Shown: positions 2,641 to 56,781 of the stretch, one piece after another | Layout of the letters: every line of letters begins with the position of its first letter | How positions within the stretch are numbered: the stretch's first letter is position 1 | Assembly (NCBI GenBank): GCA_964651495.1 | Contig: CAZYWP010000004.1 | Coordinates: forward strand, 1,667-65,666 | DNA: 64,000 nt | Direction of reading: 5' to 3' | Source: an uncultured Eubacteriales bacterium | GTDB lineage: Bacteria; Acidobacteriota; Aminicenantia; Aminicenantales; UBA8522 | Position numbers and translations under genes: made by a program | The notes under the pieces: generated by a model | Told to the model about the DNA's origin: nothing | Seen by the model: only the letters and a program-made list of their open reading frames with translations | The model's database searches: none

Positions 2641-2698
2641 CGTCGGAGAGGGCCGGATGATCGCTTTAAGGTCCGGTCCTCCAGGTTATTCGATGGAA

Positions 2699-2874
2699 GC
2701 ATCTCTGTTTCTGTGATTTGACTCGACGGCCAAGAGAGGGTGGCATGGCGCCAGTCCCCGCACCGCCCGGAGCGTAGGGGACCCCTCTCTTGACGGGTGC
2801 GGAGCGAGGACGGACGGGGACGCGCCGTGACAGGACCCTATTCCAGATCTATGTCATCGCGGAAACAGAGATGC
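2699..2874 (+). repeat. 176-nt structured intergenic repeat, copy 1 (MITE-like element or structured ncRNA)
   Basis: Differs from 39976-40151 at 6 of 176 positions with no indels, while the flanks are unrelated. 19-nt terminal inverted repeat GCATCTCTGTTTCTGTGAT / ATCGCGGAAACAGAGATGC. Several internal GC-rich helices. The strand is assigned only tentatively. Confidence 0.85.
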
Positions 2875-2878
2875 AATT

Positions 2879-3730
2879 TTATTCGATCCAGATTTTGATC
2901 ACTCGGGCCGGGGTCTCCTTGCTCCGGATTTCGATGATATTCCCCTTCATCCTGATGATCTGATCGACGATCCTATCCAGGTCGTATCCTTCCTGCCTGA
3001 GGGCGGCCTTGTCCTTTTCCGGAATCGCGCTCAGGGCCAGGTCGGCTAGCGCCCAGGGAATGCTGAGGTCAAAGGCCGGCTCATCCATGCCCCGGACCGA
3101 GACCCGGATCTTCAGCATTTTGGCGCGCCTAGACGTTCCTCTGTCTTCCACTTCCCTCAGTGAATCCGGTGAGATCCGCAGCAGGGCGATCCTGGCCCTG
3201 TCCTTGAAATCCATGTCTCTTTCCTGCTCGATGATCTGCTTCAGGACGGGGATGGCACGGGCGGCGATCTTTTTATCCTTCACCAGGCTCAACTTCAAGG
3301 CCGCATAATAGCGAACCTTCGAGCTGGGACTGAAGAGCCTCTCCTCGATTTTATCCAGATAATCCTTCTCGCCGTCATTGTAATAGAGATCATAGGCCAG
3401 GTCGATGATTGAAGTTTCCGCCTCCTCGACCAAGCTCTCGTTTTTCTCCGGCGTGAAGAGATAGTCTTCATAAGCCCTCAACGCTCTTTCCTGTTTGCCG
3501 TCCTGTTTCCCAAGGCACTTGGCCCGGTAGAAAATCGCCTGCGGTAACAGACGGCTCCTTGGATACTCCGCCAGGAGCTCTTCCAGCTTGACCTGAGCCT
3601 CCCCCCATTTTTCATCAAACAGGAGGATCTTGGCCTCCTGGAAGGCTTTTACTTCGGCCTGAGTTTGGGCGCCCGACTGAGCGCCGAACAGGCCAACCAA
3701 AAACACGATGAAGAAAAGCGCTTTCCGCAT
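2879..3730 (-). CDS. Secreted TPR/HEAT-like repeat protein, function unknown
   Basis: 283 aa. Signal-peptide-like N-terminus MRKALFFIVFLVGLFGAQSGAQ followed by helical repeat-like sequence. Starts 1 nt after the anti-sigma gene stop, so probably the same operon. Confidence 0.6.
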   Translation of the reverse strand: MRKALFFIVFLVGLFGAQSGAQTQAEVKAFQEAKILLFDEKWGEAQVKLEELLAEYPRSRLLPQAIFYRAKCLGKQDGKQERALRAYEDYLFTPEKNESLVEEAETSIIDLAYDLYYNDGEKDYLDKIEERLFSPSSKVRYYAALKLSLVKDKKIAARAIPVLKQIIEQERDMDFKDRARIALLRISPDSLREVEDRGTSRRAKMLKIRVSVRGMDEPAFDLSIPWALADLALSAIPEKDKAALRQEGYDLDRIVDQIIRMKGNIIEIRSKETPARVIKIWIE

Positions 3731-3731
3731 C

Positions 3732-4529
3732 TCAGACCTCGCTTTCCTGCAATTCCTTTTTTAACAATTTAATTTTTAAAAGCAGATTTTTCTGTTCGAT
3801 CAAGCCCTGGATCTCCCGTCGCTGCTCGTCAGTCAGGCTCTCGCTGACCGGGGAGAGCTCATAGAAGAGCATCTCGATCTGGTCGCAGATGTCTTTCGCT
3901 TTGGCCATCTGGATCCACTCGAGCTGGGGGTTGAGGAATTTTTTCTTGGACAGCAGCTCCCTGGCCCGCTGCGCCGCCGCCTCGCTTAGCCGGAATGGTC
4001 CTGCTTCAGCGGCAGGCTGGGCTAGTTCAAGGAGCACGTACTGGCTTTTTTCCAGGTAAGCCACGGTCTCCCGCCTGGCGATCTCGATGTCCGCCCGGTC
4101 CAGGAACTCCTGGGAAGCGAAGAATTCCCCGCCCCCCGCGTTCCGGCTGAGGCTTCCCCTGAAAACGAAGAACATGGACAGCGCCCCAACCATGACCCCG
4201 AGAAGAAGGCCCGCCAGGACCGGCCTGAACCGGAGAGCGGAGACCCGGATCCGGCGCCGCTCCAGCACGGCCTGCGGCTGGGGCCGATCCCGCCAGACGG
4301 CCCGCACGATTCTCTCCGCCTGAAAACCCCAGTCCACTGAGGCCAGAACCCGGTCCAGCTCGGGATTGAGCACCTCCGCCCGGCGGAGGACTTCCCGGTG
4401 AAGACCGAGCTCCCGGCGGCAGAGCGGGCAGTCCTTGAGATGAGCCCGGACTCTCTCCGCTCTGCGCTCCTCCAGCTCTTCGCCGAGGAAGGCGACCAGG
4501 TCATCCCTGATTTGGCGGCACGTGCTCAT
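3732..4529 (-). CDS. Anti-sigma factor (zf-HC2 type, single-pass membrane)
   Basis: N-terminal H-x3-C-x2-C motif (AHLKDCPLC). One hydrophobic segment (VLAGLLLGVMVGALSMFFVF). The start overlaps the sigma-factor stop (ATGA). Confidence 0.75.
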   Translation of the reverse strand: MSTCRQIRDDLVAFLGEELEERRAERVRAHLKDCPLCRRELGLHREVLRRAEVLNPELDRVLASVDWGFQAERIVRAVWRDRPQPQAVLERRRIRVSALRFRPVLAGLLLGVMVGALSMFFVFRGSLSRNAGGGEFFASQEFLDRADIEIARRETVAYLEKSQYVLLELAQPAAEAGPFRLSEAAAQRARELLSKKKFLNPQLEWIQMAKAKDICDQIEMLFYELSPVSESLTDEQRREIQGLIEQKNLLLKIKLLKKELQESEV

Positions 4530-5107
4530 GTTTCCATCCCCAATTGCGGGCCCAGCAGACGGCGGAGATTCCGCACTGCCTTGAAATGAAGGGACTTGAC
4601 CGTCCCCAGCCTGACGTTCAGGATCTCCGCGATTTCCCTGTAATCGAGCCCGTTATAATGCTTCATGACAAAAACCAGGCGCTGCCGTTCTCCGAGCCGT
4701 TCGAGACCGTGGGAGATGACCCGGCGCAGATCCAAGGACACCGGGTTTGCGCCGCTGCCCGAGGAGGCCAGGACGAGCTCGTCGAGGGGCTTTTCGCTCT
4801 CCATCTCCCGGCGCCTGGCGTAATGCTTGCGGTAATAATCGATGCACAGGTTCTTGGCGATCTGGAGCAGCCAGCCACGGAAATTCCCTTCTTTCTCGTA
4901 GGCGTCGAGCTTCTGATAGAGCCTCATGAATGTCTCCTGGACGATGTCCATGGCATCCTCCTTGTTCCGGAGGACGGAGTAGGCCAGCAAAAAGACCTGC
5001 TGCTGATAATGGAAGACGATCGTTTTGAAGGCTTCCCGGTCGCCGCTTGCGGCCTCCCGAAGCAGAGATTGGATGTCTTCACTTTCCGTTATCCTCGTCT
5101 GTTCCAT
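4526..5107 (-). CDS. ECF-family RNA polymerase sigma factor
   Basis: 193 aa. Region 2-like FMRLYQKLDAYEKEGNFRGWLLQIAKNLCIDYYRK and region 4-like YREIAEILNVRLGTVKSLHFKAVRNLR. Confidence 0.9.
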   Translation of the reverse strand: MEQTRITESEDIQSLLREAASGDREAFKTIVFHYQQQVFLLAYSVLRNKEDAMDIVQETFMRLYQKLDAYEKEGNFRGWLLQIAKNLCIDYYRKHYARRREMESEKPLDELVLASSGSGANPVSLDLRRVISHGLERLGERQRLVFVMKHYNGLDYREIAEILNVRLGTVKSLHFKAVRNLRRLLGPQLGMET

Positions 5108-38657: not shown

Positions 38658-39530
38658 TTATCCCCAGATATTATACTTCTTGACCATGTGGTGGGGATGA
38701 TAGGAGGTCTTGGCCCGGCGAAGGCCGGGGTTGCCGTTGTCCTGCTCGCGGTTGATGAACCGGAAGTCGGACCAGGAGTTTTTGCTGAATTCACGGTTCA
38801 TTAACTGGCTGAGCCCATCATAAGCCGGGTGGGCGATTTCGATGTGGACGAGAGCCGCATCCGGGGAAAATCCAGCGCCGATCGAGAAGGCGGCGATATC
38901 TCCCTCGACCTCGATGGCTCCGCCCACCAGGCCCACATCGGCAAAGTGCTGGAACGCCTCCTCGATGACCTGCTTCCAGACGCCGGTGATAAACCCGTCG
39001 GTCGCGGCTTTGGCCCGGATCCACTCACCCAGCAGCCGGCGGCAGCTCTCGACGTGCTCGGGCGAGAGCTTGAGGTAGCGGAAGCCGTGAGTTTTTTCAA
39101 ACTTCCGGATGCGGTTCCGCTTTCCGTCGTATTTTTTCCCCCTCAGATAGATTAGGTCTTCGGCCCGATAGACATAATCAAAATTGTCCCGGTCGGGCTC
39201 ACAGCGGAAGCGGCGGCCGAATTTCAAGGCGAACTCTTCGGGAACCCGGGAAATCCGGGGAGCAAAAGAGAAACACGTCTCTATGGTCTCCTCTATCCTG
39301 TTTCCGCCGATCGGTTGGAGGAAATAGGCCGGCTCGGATGGCGGCGCGCAGAGGATGCAGAGGTTGCCGTGGATGAAGGTAAATTTGGGACGTTCGAAAT
39401 TCCTCCAGAGAAAAATATTGCCGAAATTGACTTCGCAAGCCTCTGAGGGATGGCGGGATATGAGAGACTCAACGACGGTCTTATCCTTGAGCTCAATCGG
39501 CTTAAATTCCGGAAACCGCGGCTGGTTCAT
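38658..39530 (-). CDS. Stand-alone DUF2156 protein (homologous to the aminoacyl-tRNA-dependent transferase domain of MprF/LysX)
   Basis: 290 aa. Assigned from my recollection of the DUF2156 pattern (NFGNIFLWR...YLRGKKYDGKRNRIRKF...). No TM flippase domain. ATGA overlap with the upstream GNAT gene. Confidence 0.7.
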   Translation of the reverse strand: MNQPRFPEFKPIELKDKTVVESLISRHPSEACEVNFGNIFLWRNFERPKFTFIHGNLCILCAPPSEPAYFLQPIGGNRIEETIETCFSFAPRISRVPEEFALKFGRRFRCEPDRDNFDYVYRAEDLIYLRGKKYDGKRNRIRKFEKTHGFRYLKLSPEHVESCRRLLGEWIRAKAATDGFITGVWKQVIEEAFQHFADVGLVGGAIEVEGDIAAFSIGAGFSPDAALVHIEIAHPAYDGLSQLMNREFSKNSWSDFRFINREQDNGNPGLRRAKTSYHPHHMVKKYNIWG

Positions 39531-39934
39531 CGCTTTTTTATGACCATCACCCGGCAGAGTTCACGCCTGCAACCCTCGCACCAGTCGGCTTTTTTGACCA
39601 TCGAGGCCGGGATAACGTCCGCCTCGCGGAACCCGAACCTGGCAAAATAGCCCGGGATCACCGTGGCTAGATAGATTTCAGCTTTGACCGCCCTGAGAAG
39701 AGCGCGGACCAGACGCGTCCCCAGCCCGCGGCCGCGCCGGGTCCCCTCCACGCCGAGCGCGCAGAGCTCCAGGCCGTCAGGGTGCTTTTTGAGCCCGCAG
39801 ATGCCGAGGACCTTCTCCCCGTCTGCCGCCACCCAGAAATCATCCGCGGCCATGCCCGCGTAGTCAAGATTCAATCTCTGAGCCAGGGTGAGGATCTGAG
39901 GAAAATCAGGCTGACGGGCTTTTCTGATGCGCAT
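39527..39934 (-). CDS. GNAT-family N-acetyltransferase
   Basis: Acetyl-CoA motif RRGRGLGTRLVRAL. I prefer ATG 39934 (MRIRKARQPDF). The track start at 39979 lies inside the repeat element. Confidence 0.8.
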   Translation of the reverse strand: MRIRKARQPDFPQILTLAQRLNLDYAGMAADDFWVAADGEKVLGICGLKKHPDGLELCALGVEGTRRGRGLGTRLVRALLRAVKAEIYLATVIPGYFARFGFREADVIPASMVKKADWCEGCRRELCRVMVIKKR

Positions 39935-39941
39935 CGCCGCT

Positions 39942-39950
39942 ATTATAACA
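39942..39950 (-). promoter_or_regulatory. Candidate extended -10 element of the GNAT/DUF2156 operon
   Basis: Minus strand TGTTATAAT. Only 7 nt (AGCGGCG, no SD) lie before the ATG at 39934, which is consistent with a leaderless mRNA. There is no good -35. Confidence 0.4.
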
Positions 39951-39975
39951 TGATTAGCGCGGGCTGCTCGCGGAG

Positions 39976-40151
39976 GCATCTCTGTTTCCGTGATTTGGCT
40001 CGACGGCCAAGAGAGGGTGGCATGGCGCCAGTCCCCGCACCGCCCGGAGCGAAGGGGACCCCTCTCTTGACGGGTGCGGAGCGAGGACGGACGGGGACGC
40101 GCCGTGACAGGACCCTATTCCAGATCTATGTTATCACGGAAACAGAGATAC
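39976..40151 (+). repeat. 176-nt structured intergenic repeat, copy 2
   Basis: Same length and orientation as 2699-2874, with 6 substitutions. Terminal inverted repeat of 17 perfect bp (ATCTCTGTTTCCGTGAT / ATCACGGAAACAGAGAT). Confidence 0.85.
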
Positions 40152-40171
40152 GATTGCTGCCCGCGGCAGGT

Positions 40172-40200
40172 TTGACAAGAAAGGGACGCTGTAGTATACC
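40172..40200 (+). promoter_or_regulatory. Candidate pgsA promoter
   Basis: TTGACA (40172-40177), 17 nt, TATACC (40195-40200). Only 8 nt (TCAGAAAA, no SD) lie before the ATG at 40209. Confidence 0.45.
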
Positions 40201-40208
40201 TCAGAAAA

Positions 40209-40736
40209 ATGAATGCGCCCCTGGCCCTGACCTTTCTTCGCATTCTTTCTATTCCCATCCTGGTCATTGTCCTGATGGTCGATTTCAAAGACCAGGAGAT
40301 CACCGCGTTTGCCATATTTCTCCTGGCTACGCTTACCGACATGCTGGACGGGCTCTGGGCCCGGAAAAAAAAACAGGTCACCGTCCTAGGCCAGCTTCTC
40401 GACCCGACCGCCGACAAACTCCTCGTCGCCTCGGTCCTCGTCTGCCTGGTCGGCAGAGGAGCCGTGCCGGCCTGGATGGCGGTGATCATCATCGGCCGGG
40501 AGATCGCCGTCACCGGGTTTCGGGCCATGGCCTCCTCCAAGGGCATCAACATCCCGGCTTCTCCGTTCGGGAAAATCAAGATGATCCTGGAGACGGTGAC
40601 CATCTGTTTTCTGCTTCTGGGCGAAAAAAACCTGGGCTCTCTCTATTCTCTTTCTCGTTTAGGACTCTGGCTCGCCATCGTCGCGGCTTTGATCTCGGCG
40701 GCGCAGTACTATGTGAAATTCGGCCGGACTGTTTTA

Positions 40737-40751
<15 letters not shown>
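40209..40751 (+). CDS. pgsA: CDP-diacylglycerol--glycerol-3-phosphate 3-phosphatidyltransferase
   Basis: CDP-alcohol phosphotransferase motif DMLDGLWARKKKQVTVLGQLLDPTADK. Four hydrophobic segments. 180 aa. Confidence 0.9.
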
Positions 40752-41669
<918 letters not shown>

Positions 41670-56752: not shown

Positions 56753-56781
56753 GGGTCCTGTCGCGTCCCCGACTCGTCCTC
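56753..56781 (-). repeat. Fragment related to the 3' core of the 176-nt repeat
   Basis: The minus strand reads GAGGACG-AGT-CGGGGACGCG-ACAGGACCC. The element reads GAGGACG-GA-CGGGGACGCG-CCGTG-ACAGGACCC (2806-2838). Three collinear exact blocks of 7, 10 and 9 nt. The fragment begins at the last base of the ydbL-like stop codon. Confidence 0.45.

What the first reader, a model, noticed from the sequence alone, without database searches (positions are those of the whole stretch)
39976..40151. Copy 2 of the repeat: substitutions cluster in the closing stem and mostly preserve pairing, and the element sits between two divergent promoters
Five of the 6 differences between the copies fall in the roughly 44 nt that form the terminal stem. 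Only one (2775 T versus A) falls in the ~130-nt core, and it lies in a predicted loop. Four stem differences keep pairing on the plus strand:
- 2712 T versus C and 2859 G versus A turn two T:G pairs of copy 1 into C:G and T:A in copy 2.
- 2721 A versus G and 2855 C versus T turn G:C and A:T into G:T pairs.
These four are tolerated only if the plus strand is read as RNA, because they would be A:C mismatches on the minus strand. The sixth difference (2873 G versus 40150 A) does the opposite: it gives C:A on plus and G:U on minus. So the evidence is 4 to 1 from a very small sample, and transitions alone could mimic it. Context argues the other way. If my promoter calls are right, copy 2 lies between the GNAT -10 (39942-39950) and the pgsA -35 (40172-40177). 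That places it in a non-transcribed spacer, as expected for an inserted element. The ORF-track start of the GNAT gene (ATG at 39979-39977) is formed by the element's first bases (GCAT). The same bases occur in copy 1 with no ORF, so that start is an artefact.
Basis: partly seen in the sequence, partly recalled or inferred. Interest (0 to 1): 0.6.

Follow-up and report, generated by a model that had tools for sequence, protein, structure and literature searches.

The report
Promoter-homing miniature transposon with folded core
The repeat is a 184-bp non-coding jumping element (a MITE) that landed 16 bp upstream of the pgsA promoter without damaging either neighbouring promoter; that is an ordinary kind of selfish DNA, but it carries a conserved inner module that folds on one strand only and whose role is unknown.

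Summary
Copy 2 is a recent insertion of a 184-bp MITE (39972-40155) with 23-bp terminal inverted repeats (TIRs) and a 9-bp target-site duplication (TSD).

- **Insertion proven.** A 97-98% identical contig (L026) has the empty site with the target once. Three other samples carry a different family member after the same 9-mer, so the site was hit twice independently.
- **Targeting.** Across the family, a TTGAC box lies exactly 16 nt outward from an element end in 15 of 52 ends, on either side. Together with the 9-bp TSD, terminal G...C and near-perfect TIRs, this matches published ISKra4-group (Mutator-like) insertion sequences. No autonomous partner was found.
The 4-to-1 count in the terminal stem does not hold up: 15 copies give 16 G.T, 10 A.C and 44 other mismatches.
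- **Core.** The ~105-nt core does fold strand-specifically: 30 G.T against 0 A.C, with compensatory changes and no Rfam match. It occurs in many metatranscriptomes. Its function is unknown.
- **Context.** The promoter calls and the artefactual GNAT start are supported.

The parts
39972..40155 (+). Copy 2 of the MITE, full element (184 bp)
   Evidence: the repeat finder. The boundaries are fixed by the empty-site contig: L026 1-546 matches window 39427-39972, and L026 538-1161 matches window 40157-40781.
39963..39971 (.). Left copy of the 9-bp target-site duplication (GCTGCTCGC)
   Evidence: The empty site L026 has aCTGCTCGC once.
40156..40164 (.). Right copy of the 9-bp target-site duplication (GCTGCCCGC, 8/9 match)
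39972..39994 (+). Left terminal inverted repeat, GGAGGCATCTCTGTTTCCGTGAT
   Evidence: The same TIR frames many other short elements.
40133..40155 (-). Right terminal inverted repeat (reverse complement AATCGTATCTCTGTTTCCGTGAT)
40012..40121 (+). Conserved structured core module; the folding strand is the window plus strand
   Evidence: Covariance model R1 hit, 110.4 bits. Structure and covariation.
40172..40177 (+). pgsA -35 box TTGACA, starting 16 nt beyond the element end; the targeted promoter
   Evidence: Present in the empty site. Conserved in relatives. Family-wide offset-16 motif.
40195..40200 (+). Likely pgsA -10 (TATACC, 17-nt spacer), 8 nt before the ATG at 40209, which implies a leaderless mRNA
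   Evidence: Sequence and conservation of the register in relatives. Inference; not called by the consensus scan.
40209..40751 (+). pgsA (CDP-alcohol phosphatidyltransferase, 180 aa)
   Evidence: Pfam PF01066.
39942..39950 (-). GNAT extended -10 (TGtTATAAT), 7 nt before the true start
   Evidence: conserved in relatives.
39527..39934 (-). GNAT acetyltransferase gene with its true 135-aa start at 39934
   Evidence: Gene calls on L026 and L123-L126; Pfam PF00583.
39935..39979 (-). Artefactual 15-codon N-terminal extension of the GNAT ORF, whose ATG lies in the element (39979-39977)
   Evidence: One search compared.
2695..2878 (+). Copy 1 of the MITE (core 2735-2844)
2686..2694 (.). Copy 1 left TSD, TTATTCGAT
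   Evidence: 9/9 match.
2879..2887 (.). Copy 1 right TSD, TTATTCGAT; it contains the stop codon (TAA on the minus strand) of the 283-aa gene
2895..2900 (+). TTGATC box at offset 16 from the end of copy 1. It lies inside the 3' end of a convergent gene, so it matches the target motif but is not a promoter.

Best explanation
Copy 2 is a non-autonomous DNA transposon (MITE) of 184 bp. A DDE transposase supplied in trans cut the target with a 9-bp stagger and pasted the element in, which duplicated GCTGCTCGC.

The transposase is most probably of the ISKra4 group of prokaryotic Mutator-like enzymes. These place an element end about 16 bp upstream of a sigma-70-type -35 box. Here the box is TTGACA of the pgsA promoter.

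The duplication restores the flanking sequence on both sides, so the pgsA promoter and the divergent GNAT extended -10 promoter both stay intact. The two promoters are simply pushed 193 bp apart.

The differences between the two window copies are neutral transitions accumulating in the arms. The arms are constrained only as transposase-binding TIRs.

The ~105-nt core is under purifying selection to fold as a single strand of the window plus strand. It most likely folds as RNA made by read-through or pervasive transcription.

Shown:
- the insertion, the TSD and the empty site;
- independent re-use of the same site;
- the target motif;
- strand-specific covariation of the core;
- presence of the core in RNA libraries.

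Inferred:
- the identity of the transposase family;
- that the folded molecule is RNA rather than single-stranded DNA;
- any function of the core.
For: **Insertion.** L026 is 97-98% identical in the flanks, lacks the element and has the target once. Its two matches to the window overlap by exactly 9 nt.

**Family-wide TSD.** A 9-bp TSD lies exactly 4 nt outside GCATC/GATGC. Of 32 TIR pairs, 14 match at 8/9 or better and 6 are perfect. None of 124 shifted controls reaches 7/9.

**Second, independent hit at the same nucleotide.** L124, L125 and L126 (three samples) carry a different TIR and core variant after ACTGCTCGC.

**Target motif.** A match of 4/5 or better to TTGAC sits at offset 16 in 15 of 52 ends, against 0-3 at other offsets (p about 1e-12). 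It occurs on either side, and on both sides in L088.

**Published ISKra4-group behaviour (PMC3942029).**
- Insertion about 16 bp from sigmaA -35 boxes.
- Promoters on both sides when the IRs are 83-100% complementary.
- DR of 8-9 bp.
- IR of 18-39 bp with a terminal C.
- ISAcce1 IR GGGTGCATTTAATTTCCGCGA compared with ours GGAAGCATCTCCGTTTCCGTGA.

**Core.**
- RNAalifold structure with 6 pairs showing double changes.
- 857 Watson-Crick cells, 30 G.T, 0 A.C and 11 other.
- 98.8% of cells paired, against 38-50% for slid partners; covariation score reached by 0 of 500 shuffles.

**Arms.** 16 G.T, 10 A.C and 44 other mismatches. Fisher test, core against arms: p=0.00015.

**RNA.** More than 18 metatranscriptomes hold core words, with contig depth up to 61 in an activated-sludge RNA run.
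Against: - No transposase-bearing element with these TIRs was found in about 165 fetched loci. The ISKra4 attribution therefore rests on four behavioural features plus a partial IR resemblance.
- Both window copies lie where no known host promoter drives plus-strand transcription into them, and no conserved internal promoter was seen.
- The RNA evidence comes from undirected contigs and could include DNA carry-over.
- Copies were collected with an exact 20-mer of the core, which inflates the apparent invariance of that stretch.
- Copies within one genome are not independent events.
Confidence: 0.8

Rival explanations
1. The core folds as single-stranded DNA, not RNA. One strand of the element is exposed during copy-out/paste-in transposition or during replication, and the fold-back brings the two ends together or is recognised by a protein. 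On this reading the strand bias reflects the strand that becomes single-stranded.
For: The G.T-only bias is equally expected for a DNA hairpin on one strand. Insertions sit upstream of promoters that fire away from the element, so transcription into it is not guaranteed. p-MULT elements transpose through circular intermediates (PMC3942029). No conserved internal promoter was found.
Against: The core is found in many independent metatranscriptomes, in one at depth 61. The same TIR shell works with unrelated or very short cargos (69-111 nt), so the core is not needed for mobility. Long forms without TIRs exist.
Confidence: 0.22
2. The core has no function. Its conservation reflects recent amplification from one master copy and gene conversion, and the fold is a by-product of a palindromic origin.
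For: Many copies come from a few genomes. The collection was biased by the 20-mer query. The apparent cross-phylum spread is largely a labelling artefact.
Against: Substitutions are not uniform. P2 and the arms vary freely, while the internal loops that were not used as the query stay nearly invariant. Of 41 non-Watson-Crick cells in the helices, 30 are G.T and none is A.C. There are stepwise compensatory series: G-C to G.U to A-U at columns 76/154, and C-G to U.G to U-A at columns 77/153. Diverged homologues keep the helices with changed sequence (L107, L101).
Confidence: 0.1
3. The element is moved by a different DDE family that also makes 9-bp duplications (IS4/Tn5-like, IS5/IS903-like or IS1-like), and the TTGAC preference is simply that enzyme's sequence-specific target motif.
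For: No ISKra4-type transposase was linked directly. Copy 1 sits 16 nt from TTGATC inside a coding region with no -10 box. IS903 is known, from my own knowledge, to have a symmetric target preference around a 9-bp duplication.
Against: All four published ISKra4-group traits are met, including two-sided -35 targeting at 16 bp and a terminal C. By my own inspection of the flanks printed (not tallied by a script), most targeted boxes are followed by a -10 at 17 nt. The IR resembles ISAcce1.
Confidence: 0.12
4. The repeat is a chromosomal structured-RNA gene or cis-regulatory leader, not a mobile element.
For: High predicted stability on both strands (z about -5 to -6). Covariation in the core.
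Against: There is an empty site and a TSD, and a different element at the same site. Copies sit next to unrelated genes with no recurrent neighbour. The element lies upstream of, not inside, the transcription units. No Rfam family matches.
Confidence: 0.02

Closest known systems
ISKra4-group insertion sequences (p-MULT 4, prokaryotic Mutator-like DDE transposons; Guerillot et al. 2014, PMC3942029), e.g. ISAcce1, ISKra2/4/5/6, ISCasp2/3
   Same: 9-bp direct repeats. Inverted repeats of 18-39 bp ending in C. Nearly perfect complementarity between left and right IR. An element end about 16 bp from a sigmaA -35 box, with promoters found on either side. The IR of ISAcce1 shares GG..GCAT and TTTCCGYGA with this element.
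   Different: This element is 184 bp with no transposase gene. No autonomous partner with the same ends was found here. The paper does not mention MITE derivatives. IRs of described members start GGGTGC or GGGCGT, whereas ours starts GGAAGC.
[quoted passage not shown]
   Same: Insertion 15-17 bp upstream of sigmaA promoter -35 boxes, with 8-9 bp duplications (PMC3942029).
   Different: Those insert in one orientation because their IRs are dissymmetric, and they are 1.1-52 kb autonomous elements. Here insertion is two-sided and the element is miniature.
Fold-back bacterial MITEs with RNA-level effects: Correia/NEMIS of Neisseria, ERIC, and QMITE1/2 of Coxiella (review PMC10969869)
   Same: Short, non-coding, with TIR plus core. 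The transcript folds into a long hairpin. QMITE2 has DRs of 7-9 bp, TIRs of 23-29 bp and a core of 113-145 bp, and gives rise to sRNAs.
   Different: No sequence relationship was tested or expected. Those families are not promoter-homing. No covariation-supported, strand-specific core that is exchanged between shells has been described for them in the review.
Pack-MULEs of plants (cargo-carrying non-autonomous Mutator elements)
   Same: Non-autonomous elements of the Mutator superfamily that carry varying internal cargo between conserved ends and prefer the 5' ends of genes (cited in PMC3942029).
   Different: They are eukaryotic, their cargo is gene fragments rather than a small structured module, and there is no fixed 16-bp geometry.

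Membership tests
MITE (non-autonomous DDE transposon) | Terminal inverted repeats | tested here: met
   23-bp TIR GGARGCATCTCTGTTTCCGTGAT at both ends.
MITE (non-autonomous DDE transposon) | Target-site duplication of fixed length | tested here: met
   9 bp: 9/9 at copy 1 and 8/9 at copy 2. Of 32 family pairs, 14 match at 8/9 or better, against 0 of 124 controls at 7/9 or better.
MITE (non-autonomous DDE transposon) | Orthologous empty site | tested here: met
   L026. Related species L127, L128, L134 and L138 have short empty spacers.
MITE (non-autonomous DDE transposon) | Small, non-coding, multicopy | tested here: met
   184 bp. Two copies in the window, further copies in metagenomes, and 14 or more core copies in one Aminicenantes MAG. 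The only ORFs are frames running through the repeat itself.
MITE (non-autonomous DDE transposon) | Autonomous partner with matching ends | tested here: inconclusive
   None found among the fetched loci.
ISKra4 group (p-MULT 4) mobilised element | DR of 8-9 bp | tested here: met
   One search compared with PMC3942029.
ISKra4 group (p-MULT 4) mobilised element | IR of 18-39 bp with a conserved terminal C, and left/right IRs nearly perfectly complementary | tested here: met
   The ends are 5'-GG...CC-3'. The 19-nt GCATC...GTGAT blocks are 18/19 complementary in copy 2, 17/19 in copy 1 and 19/19 in L030; the outermost 4 nt pair only partly in the window copies.
ISKra4 group (p-MULT 4) mobilised element | Element end 13-17 bp from a sigmaA -35 box, on either side | tested here: met
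   15 of 52 ends have TTGAC (4/5 or better) at offset 16, on both sides. For copy 2 this is TTGACA at 40172.
ISKra4 group (p-MULT 4) mobilised element | Cognate transposase with the p-MULT 4 / ISKra4 signature | not testable with these tools
The supplement sequences are truncated at 400 nt.
Structured non-coding RNA family | Match to a curated family (Rfam 15) | tested here: not met
   No hit, even at E<=10 on the element or E<=5 on the long forms.
Structured non-coding RNA family | Covariation-supported, strand-specific secondary structure | tested here: met
   for the core only. Not met for the terminal stem.
Structured non-coding RNA family | Evidence of a defined transcript (promoter, ends, strand) | tested here: inconclusive
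   The core is present in many metatranscriptome contigs, but without strand information. RNA contigs run through the TIRs into the flanks. No conserved promoter or terminator was found.

The most novel reading that the evidence does not exclude
The ~105-nt core is a previously undescribed structured RNA that travels as exchangeable cargo inside promoter-homing Mutator-like MITEs. It also exists in a free-standing long form of about 300 nt (L064, L048). On this reading it would be a functional RNA module, for example a protein-binding or catalytic scaffold, that spreads through Aminicenantes and other Acidobacteriota genomes by hitch-hiking on transposon shells.
Probability: 0.3. Interest if true: 0.7.

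Novelty: new variant of a known kind. Interest (0 to 1): 0.45.

Why it matters
For annotation, the finding is mostly housekeeping:
- The GNAT gene start should be 39934.
- The 274-bp GNAT-pgsA spacer is an 80-bp spacer plus an insertion.
- Both flanking genes appear to be transcribed as leaderless mRNAs from conserved promoters.

For transposon biology, the locus gives a clean natural experiment. One promoter-upstream site is seen empty, filled by one MITE, and filled by a different MITE of the same superfamily. This extends the promoter-homing behaviour published for ISKra4-type insertion sequences to miniature derivatives in uncultured Aminicenantes.

The open item is the core. Strand-specific covariation of this strength (30 G.U against 0 A.C) in an element with no Rfam match is the usual signature of a functional RNA. 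Because it is mobile and multicopy, it would be easy to test.

Tried and rejected
Copy number in the window's own genome and a family-based search for the transposase could not be done.
- An exact 25-mer of the window-type core in genome contigs gave no hits.
- A TIR-gap-TIR pattern in genome contigs gave 24 hits, all chance; only the 10-mers matched.
- Rfam at gathering and permissive thresholds on the element, on 12 loci and on the long forms gave nothing.
- No protein recurs next to the elements.
- No autonomous partner was found among relaxed TIR pairs 0.7-4 kb apart.
- The core is absent from viral contigs.
- A literature search by sequence gave nothing relevant.

**Ideas rejected on the evidence**
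- That the core spreads between Aminicenantes and Clostridia: the 'Eubacteriales' and 'Clostridiales' records have Aminicenantes-like pgsA and synteny.
- That 56753-56781 is a truncated relative of the core: the covariance model finds no hit at E<=1.

**Ideas considered by eye and dropped without a formal test**
- A 6S-like RNA, because there is no central bubble in the common form.
- A sigma-54 promoter at TGGCAC, because those positions covary as helix P2.
- An HDV-like or hammerhead ribozyme, because the topology and core motifs are wrong.

**Unresolved**
- 'Solo' cores as MITEs in other shells: the arms pair, but no duplication is detectable.

Full report
**1. The observation**

The window holds two direct copies of a 184-nt sequence, at 2695-2878 and 39972-40155, that are 176/184 identical.

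Five lie in the terminal arms. One (2775/40052) lies in an unpaired position of the core.

The pairing statements are right:
- T2712.G2861 and T2714.G2859 are wobbles in copy 1 and become C-G and T-A in copy 2.
- C39977/A40150 is a C.A mismatch.
- The two G.T pairs claimed for copy 2 depend on a helix that the minimum-energy fold of copy 2 replaces with a local hairpin.

The clustering of differences in the arms exceeds chance (p=0.005). Both strands fold about equally well (-89.4 and -89.3 kcal/mol; z -4.9 and -6.1). Folding energy therefore says nothing about which strand matters.

**2. It is an insertion**

An exact-protein look-up of pgsA returned a 1,161-nt contig (L026) from another sample. 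In it the GNAT and pgsA genes are 80 nt apart, against 274 nt in the window.
- L026 1-546 matches window 39427-39972.
- L026 538-1161 matches window 40157-40781.
- Both matches are 97-98% identical, and they overlap by 9 nt in L026.

The empty site reads aCTGCTCGC once. The window has GCTGCTCGC to the left and GCTGCCCGC to the right of the element. Copy 1 is flanked by a perfect TTATTCGAT/TTATTCGAT.

Across the family the duplication is always 9 bp at exactly this register. Of 32 TIR pairs, 14 match at 8/9 or better and six are perfect. None of 124 shifted controls reaches 7/9.

**3. The same nucleotide was hit twice**

Looking up the 135-aa GNAT protein gave four more contigs, all broken inside an element.
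- One (L123) is identical to the window.
- Three, from three other samples (L124, L125, L126), have flanks about 97% identical to the window and similar to the empty-site lineage. After the same ACTGCTCGC they carry a clearly different family member: AGAC|GCATCTCCAACTCCGTAAT...GGGTGGCGTGGTTCGGGG.

The site therefore exists in three states: empty, window-type element, and a second element type.

More distant relatives carry yet other hairpin repeats just upstream of the same conserved pgsA -35 box (L142, L144, L145, L153).

**4. Target choice and the likely transposase**

I collected copies with three scans: a TIR-anchored metagenome scan, a core 20-mer scan and a TIR scan. I then scored the flanks outward from every element end.
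- The 9-bp duplicated site has no consensus.
- A match of 4/5 or better to TTGAC sits at offset 16 in 15 of 52 ends, against 0-3 at every other offset (p about 1e-12).
- The box occurs on either side of the element, and on both sides in L088.
- By my own inspection of the printed flanks (not tallied by a script), most boxes are followed by a -10-like hexamer 17 nt later.

For copy 2 the box is the pgsA TTGACA (40172-40177), which is already present in the empty site. For copy 1 it is TTGATC, inside the 3' end of a convergent gene, so the box alone can suffice.

Guerillot et al. 2014 (PMC3942029) describe exactly this behaviour for the ISKra4 group of prokaryotic Mutator-like transposons:
- insertion about 16 bp from sigmaA -35 boxes;
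- promoters on both sides when the two IRs are 83-100% complementary;
- direct repeats of 8-9 bp;
- IRs of 18-39 bp with a terminal cytosine.

Their table lists ISAcce1 with a 9-bp DR and the IR GGGTGCATTTAATTTCCGCGA. This resembles GGAAGCATCTCCGTTTCCGTGA.

I could not link a transposase directly. The family attribution is therefore an inference from four behavioural traits. I put it at about 0.7.

Earlier notes of this scan reach the same attribution for other MITE families. I treated those notes as leads only.

**5. Effect on the neighbours**

The duplication restores the original sequence up to each end, so both core promoters are untouched.
- The GNAT promoter is an extended -10 (TGtTATAAT, 39950-39942 on the minus strand), 7 nt from the ATG at 39934.
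- The pgsA promoter is TTGACA-17-TATACC, 8 nt from the ATG at 40209.
- Both arrangements are conserved in relatives, which implies leaderless mRNAs.
- The 150-aa GNAT ORF that starts at 39979 uses a CAT supplied by the element. Gene callers choose the 135-aa form on the empty-site contig and on contigs that break inside the element.

**6.

A third near-identical copy (L030) has a perfect TIR. It polarises the five stem differences as transitions away from that state: four give G.T on the plus strand and one gives C.A. By chance, four or more of five occurs with p=0.19.

In 15 family members with clear TIRs, the arms hold 16 G.T, 10 A.C and 44 other mismatches. There is no strand bias and there are many non-pairing changes. 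The arms behave as transposase-binding DNA repeats, not as an RNA helix.

**7. The core is different**

A 29-copy alignment (A2, A3) gives a consensus hairpin:
- helix P1: GGGU/ACCC plus a closing pair;
- helix P2: CACGGCGC/GCGCCGUG;
- helix P3: GUCCCCG/CGGGGAC;
- invariant internal loops: ACGCCCGNAGCG opposite GGAGCGAGGACGGA;
- a variable apical domain.

In the helices there are 857 Watson-Crick cells, 30 G.T cells at 12 different pairs, no A.C cell and 11 others. The binomial p for 12 against 0 pairs is 0.0005, and Fisher's test against the arms gives p=0.00015.

There are stepwise compensatory series:
- G-C to G.U to A-U at columns 76/154;
- C-G to U.G to U-A at columns 77/153;
- G-C to U-A at columns 78/152;
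- five pair types at the closing pair.

With the named structure, 98.8% of cells pair, against 38-50% when the partners are slid. No shuffle of 500 reaches the observed covariation score.

A covariance model (R1) finds only the two copies in the window. It also finds diverged homologues elsewhere that keep the helices with changed sequence, or that carry apical inserts of 60-94 nt.

Caveats:
- The copies were fished with an exact 20-mer from the 3' half of the core.
- Copies within one genome are not independent.

**8. RNA or DNA**

No Rfam family matches, and the sequence is not in the searched literature.

Words of the core occur in more than 18 metatranscriptomic runs, from sediment, nine activated-sludge runs, digesters and biofilm. 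Laid contigs reach depth 61 in one activated-sludge RNA run. In a sediment run they extend through the TIRs into the flanks. This looks like read-through transcription rather than a discrete small RNA.

Contigs carry no strand. Two adapter-bearing records from runs of an unnamed organism both have the plus strand in the read-2 direction. That would mean a plus-strand RNA only if the libraries are dUTP-stranded, which is not on record.

No conserved internal promoter or terminator was found. The same TIR shell also frames unrelated cargos of 69 to about 545 nt, so the core is not needed for mobility.

My estimates for the core are:
- RNA: about 0.55
- single-stranded DNA: about 0.25
- no function: about 0.1

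**9. Distribution**

The core first seemed to occur in both Aminicenantes and Clostridia. However, the records titled 'uncultured Eubacteriales' or 'Clostridiales' have pgsA 71-76% identical to the window's, the same as named Aminicenantes MAGs. Where the upstream region was read (the CAZKEW, CAYGXD and CAZOKP records), they also show the same divergent gene-pgsA arrangement. Those labels look wrong.

The family is essentially an Aminicenantes/Acidobacteriota one. There are outliers (Terriglobales L064, a Bathyarchaeia MAG L094), and the TIR shell also turns up in Zixibacteria, Nitrospirota and others.

Two loci (L064, L048) hold both halves of the core around a 115-150-nt structured insert and have no TIR. 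This is a possible free-standing long form.

**10. Verdict**

The finding is a real, recent insertion of a promoter-homing MITE.
- The element itself is a new miniature variant of a known kind. ISKra4-type targeting is published, but MITE derivatives are mentioned neither in that paper nor in the 2024 review of prokaryotic MITEs (PMC10969869).
- The conserved core is the part that remains unexplained and is worth a directed experiment.

Noticed in passing
window 39932-39950 and 40172-40211: Both divergent genes look leaderless. The GNAT -10 ends 7 nt before its ATG, and the pgsA -10 ends 8 nt before its ATG, with no Shine-Dalgarno sequence. The geometry is conserved in about 25 relatives.
   Followed up: partly
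window 2879-2887: Copy 1 inserted immediately after the stop codon of the 283-aa gene. The 9-bp duplication contains the last two codons and the stop (ATC GAA TAA on the minus strand), so the gene stayed intact. That gene follows an ECF sigma factor and a zf-HC2 anti-sigma gene.
   Followed up: partly
L124:1-96, L125:1-96, L126:1-101: A second, different MITE of the same superfamily (TIR GCATCTCCAACTCCGTAAT, core variant GGGTGGCGTGGTTCGGGG) occupies the same 9-bp target upstream of pgsA in three other samples. The contigs break inside it, so the right junction is unseen.
   Followed up: partly
L128, L130, L131, L132, L134 and other records titled 'uncultured Eubacteriales' or 'Clostridiales bacterium': These MAGs encode pgsA 71-76% identical to the window's. 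L128, L130 and L134 also share the divergent gene-pgsA arrangement of Aminicenantes MAGs. The taxonomic labels in the record titles appear to be wrong.
   Followed up: partly
L064 about 4330-4730 (minus strand); L048 about 640-1000: Long forms: both halves of the conserved core surround a 115-150-nt structured insert. They are closed by CCGGACGGGTGG...GGACCCGTCCGG, have no GCATC TIRs and match no Rfam family.
   Followed up: partly
L142, L144, L145, L153, upstream of pgsA (locus positions about 1350-1470): Another hairpin repeat family (…AATGGGGACGTTTC…GAAACGTCCCCATT…) sits just upstream of the same pgsA -35 box in more distant Aminicenantes relatives. The site is a recurrent landing pad.
   Followed up: no
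L088:2285-2361; L091:1544-1662; L114; L116; L067:1741-2006; L100:3837-4051; L090:3094-3422: The same TIR shell carries quite different cargos of 69-321 nt, each with its own 9-bp duplication. Conversely, the core occurs in hairpins with other arms (L042, L050, L051, L055, L058). Shell and cargo appear to be exchangeable.
   Followed up: partly
L117:5400-5710: A MITE copy in the JAFNEO01 Aminicenantes MAG is interrupted inside its left arm by another element with its own inverted repeat (GGGGTCAGGTCTCAACA...).
   Followed up: no
window 40104-40132: The consensus scan calls a promoter-like site inside the right part of copy 2, facing outward (GTGACA-17-TATGTT). Copy 1 has TATGTC and the common family variant has GATGTC, so the site is not conserved.
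   Followed up: partly
It is probably chance or too fragmentary to call.
   Followed up: yes
runs X26 and X28 laid on window 39981-40137: Two small runs of an unnamed organism hold short inserts of the element with sequencing adapters still attached, one at depth 51. Both have the window plus strand in the read-2 direction. The library type is not on record.
   Followed up: partly
L009:3724-4317 and L003:78-665 (Pirellulaceae MAG): There is a tandem array with a period of about 194 nt whose units share a 12-nt palindromic word with the TIR. It is unrelated to the element and was hit by chance.
   Followed up: no
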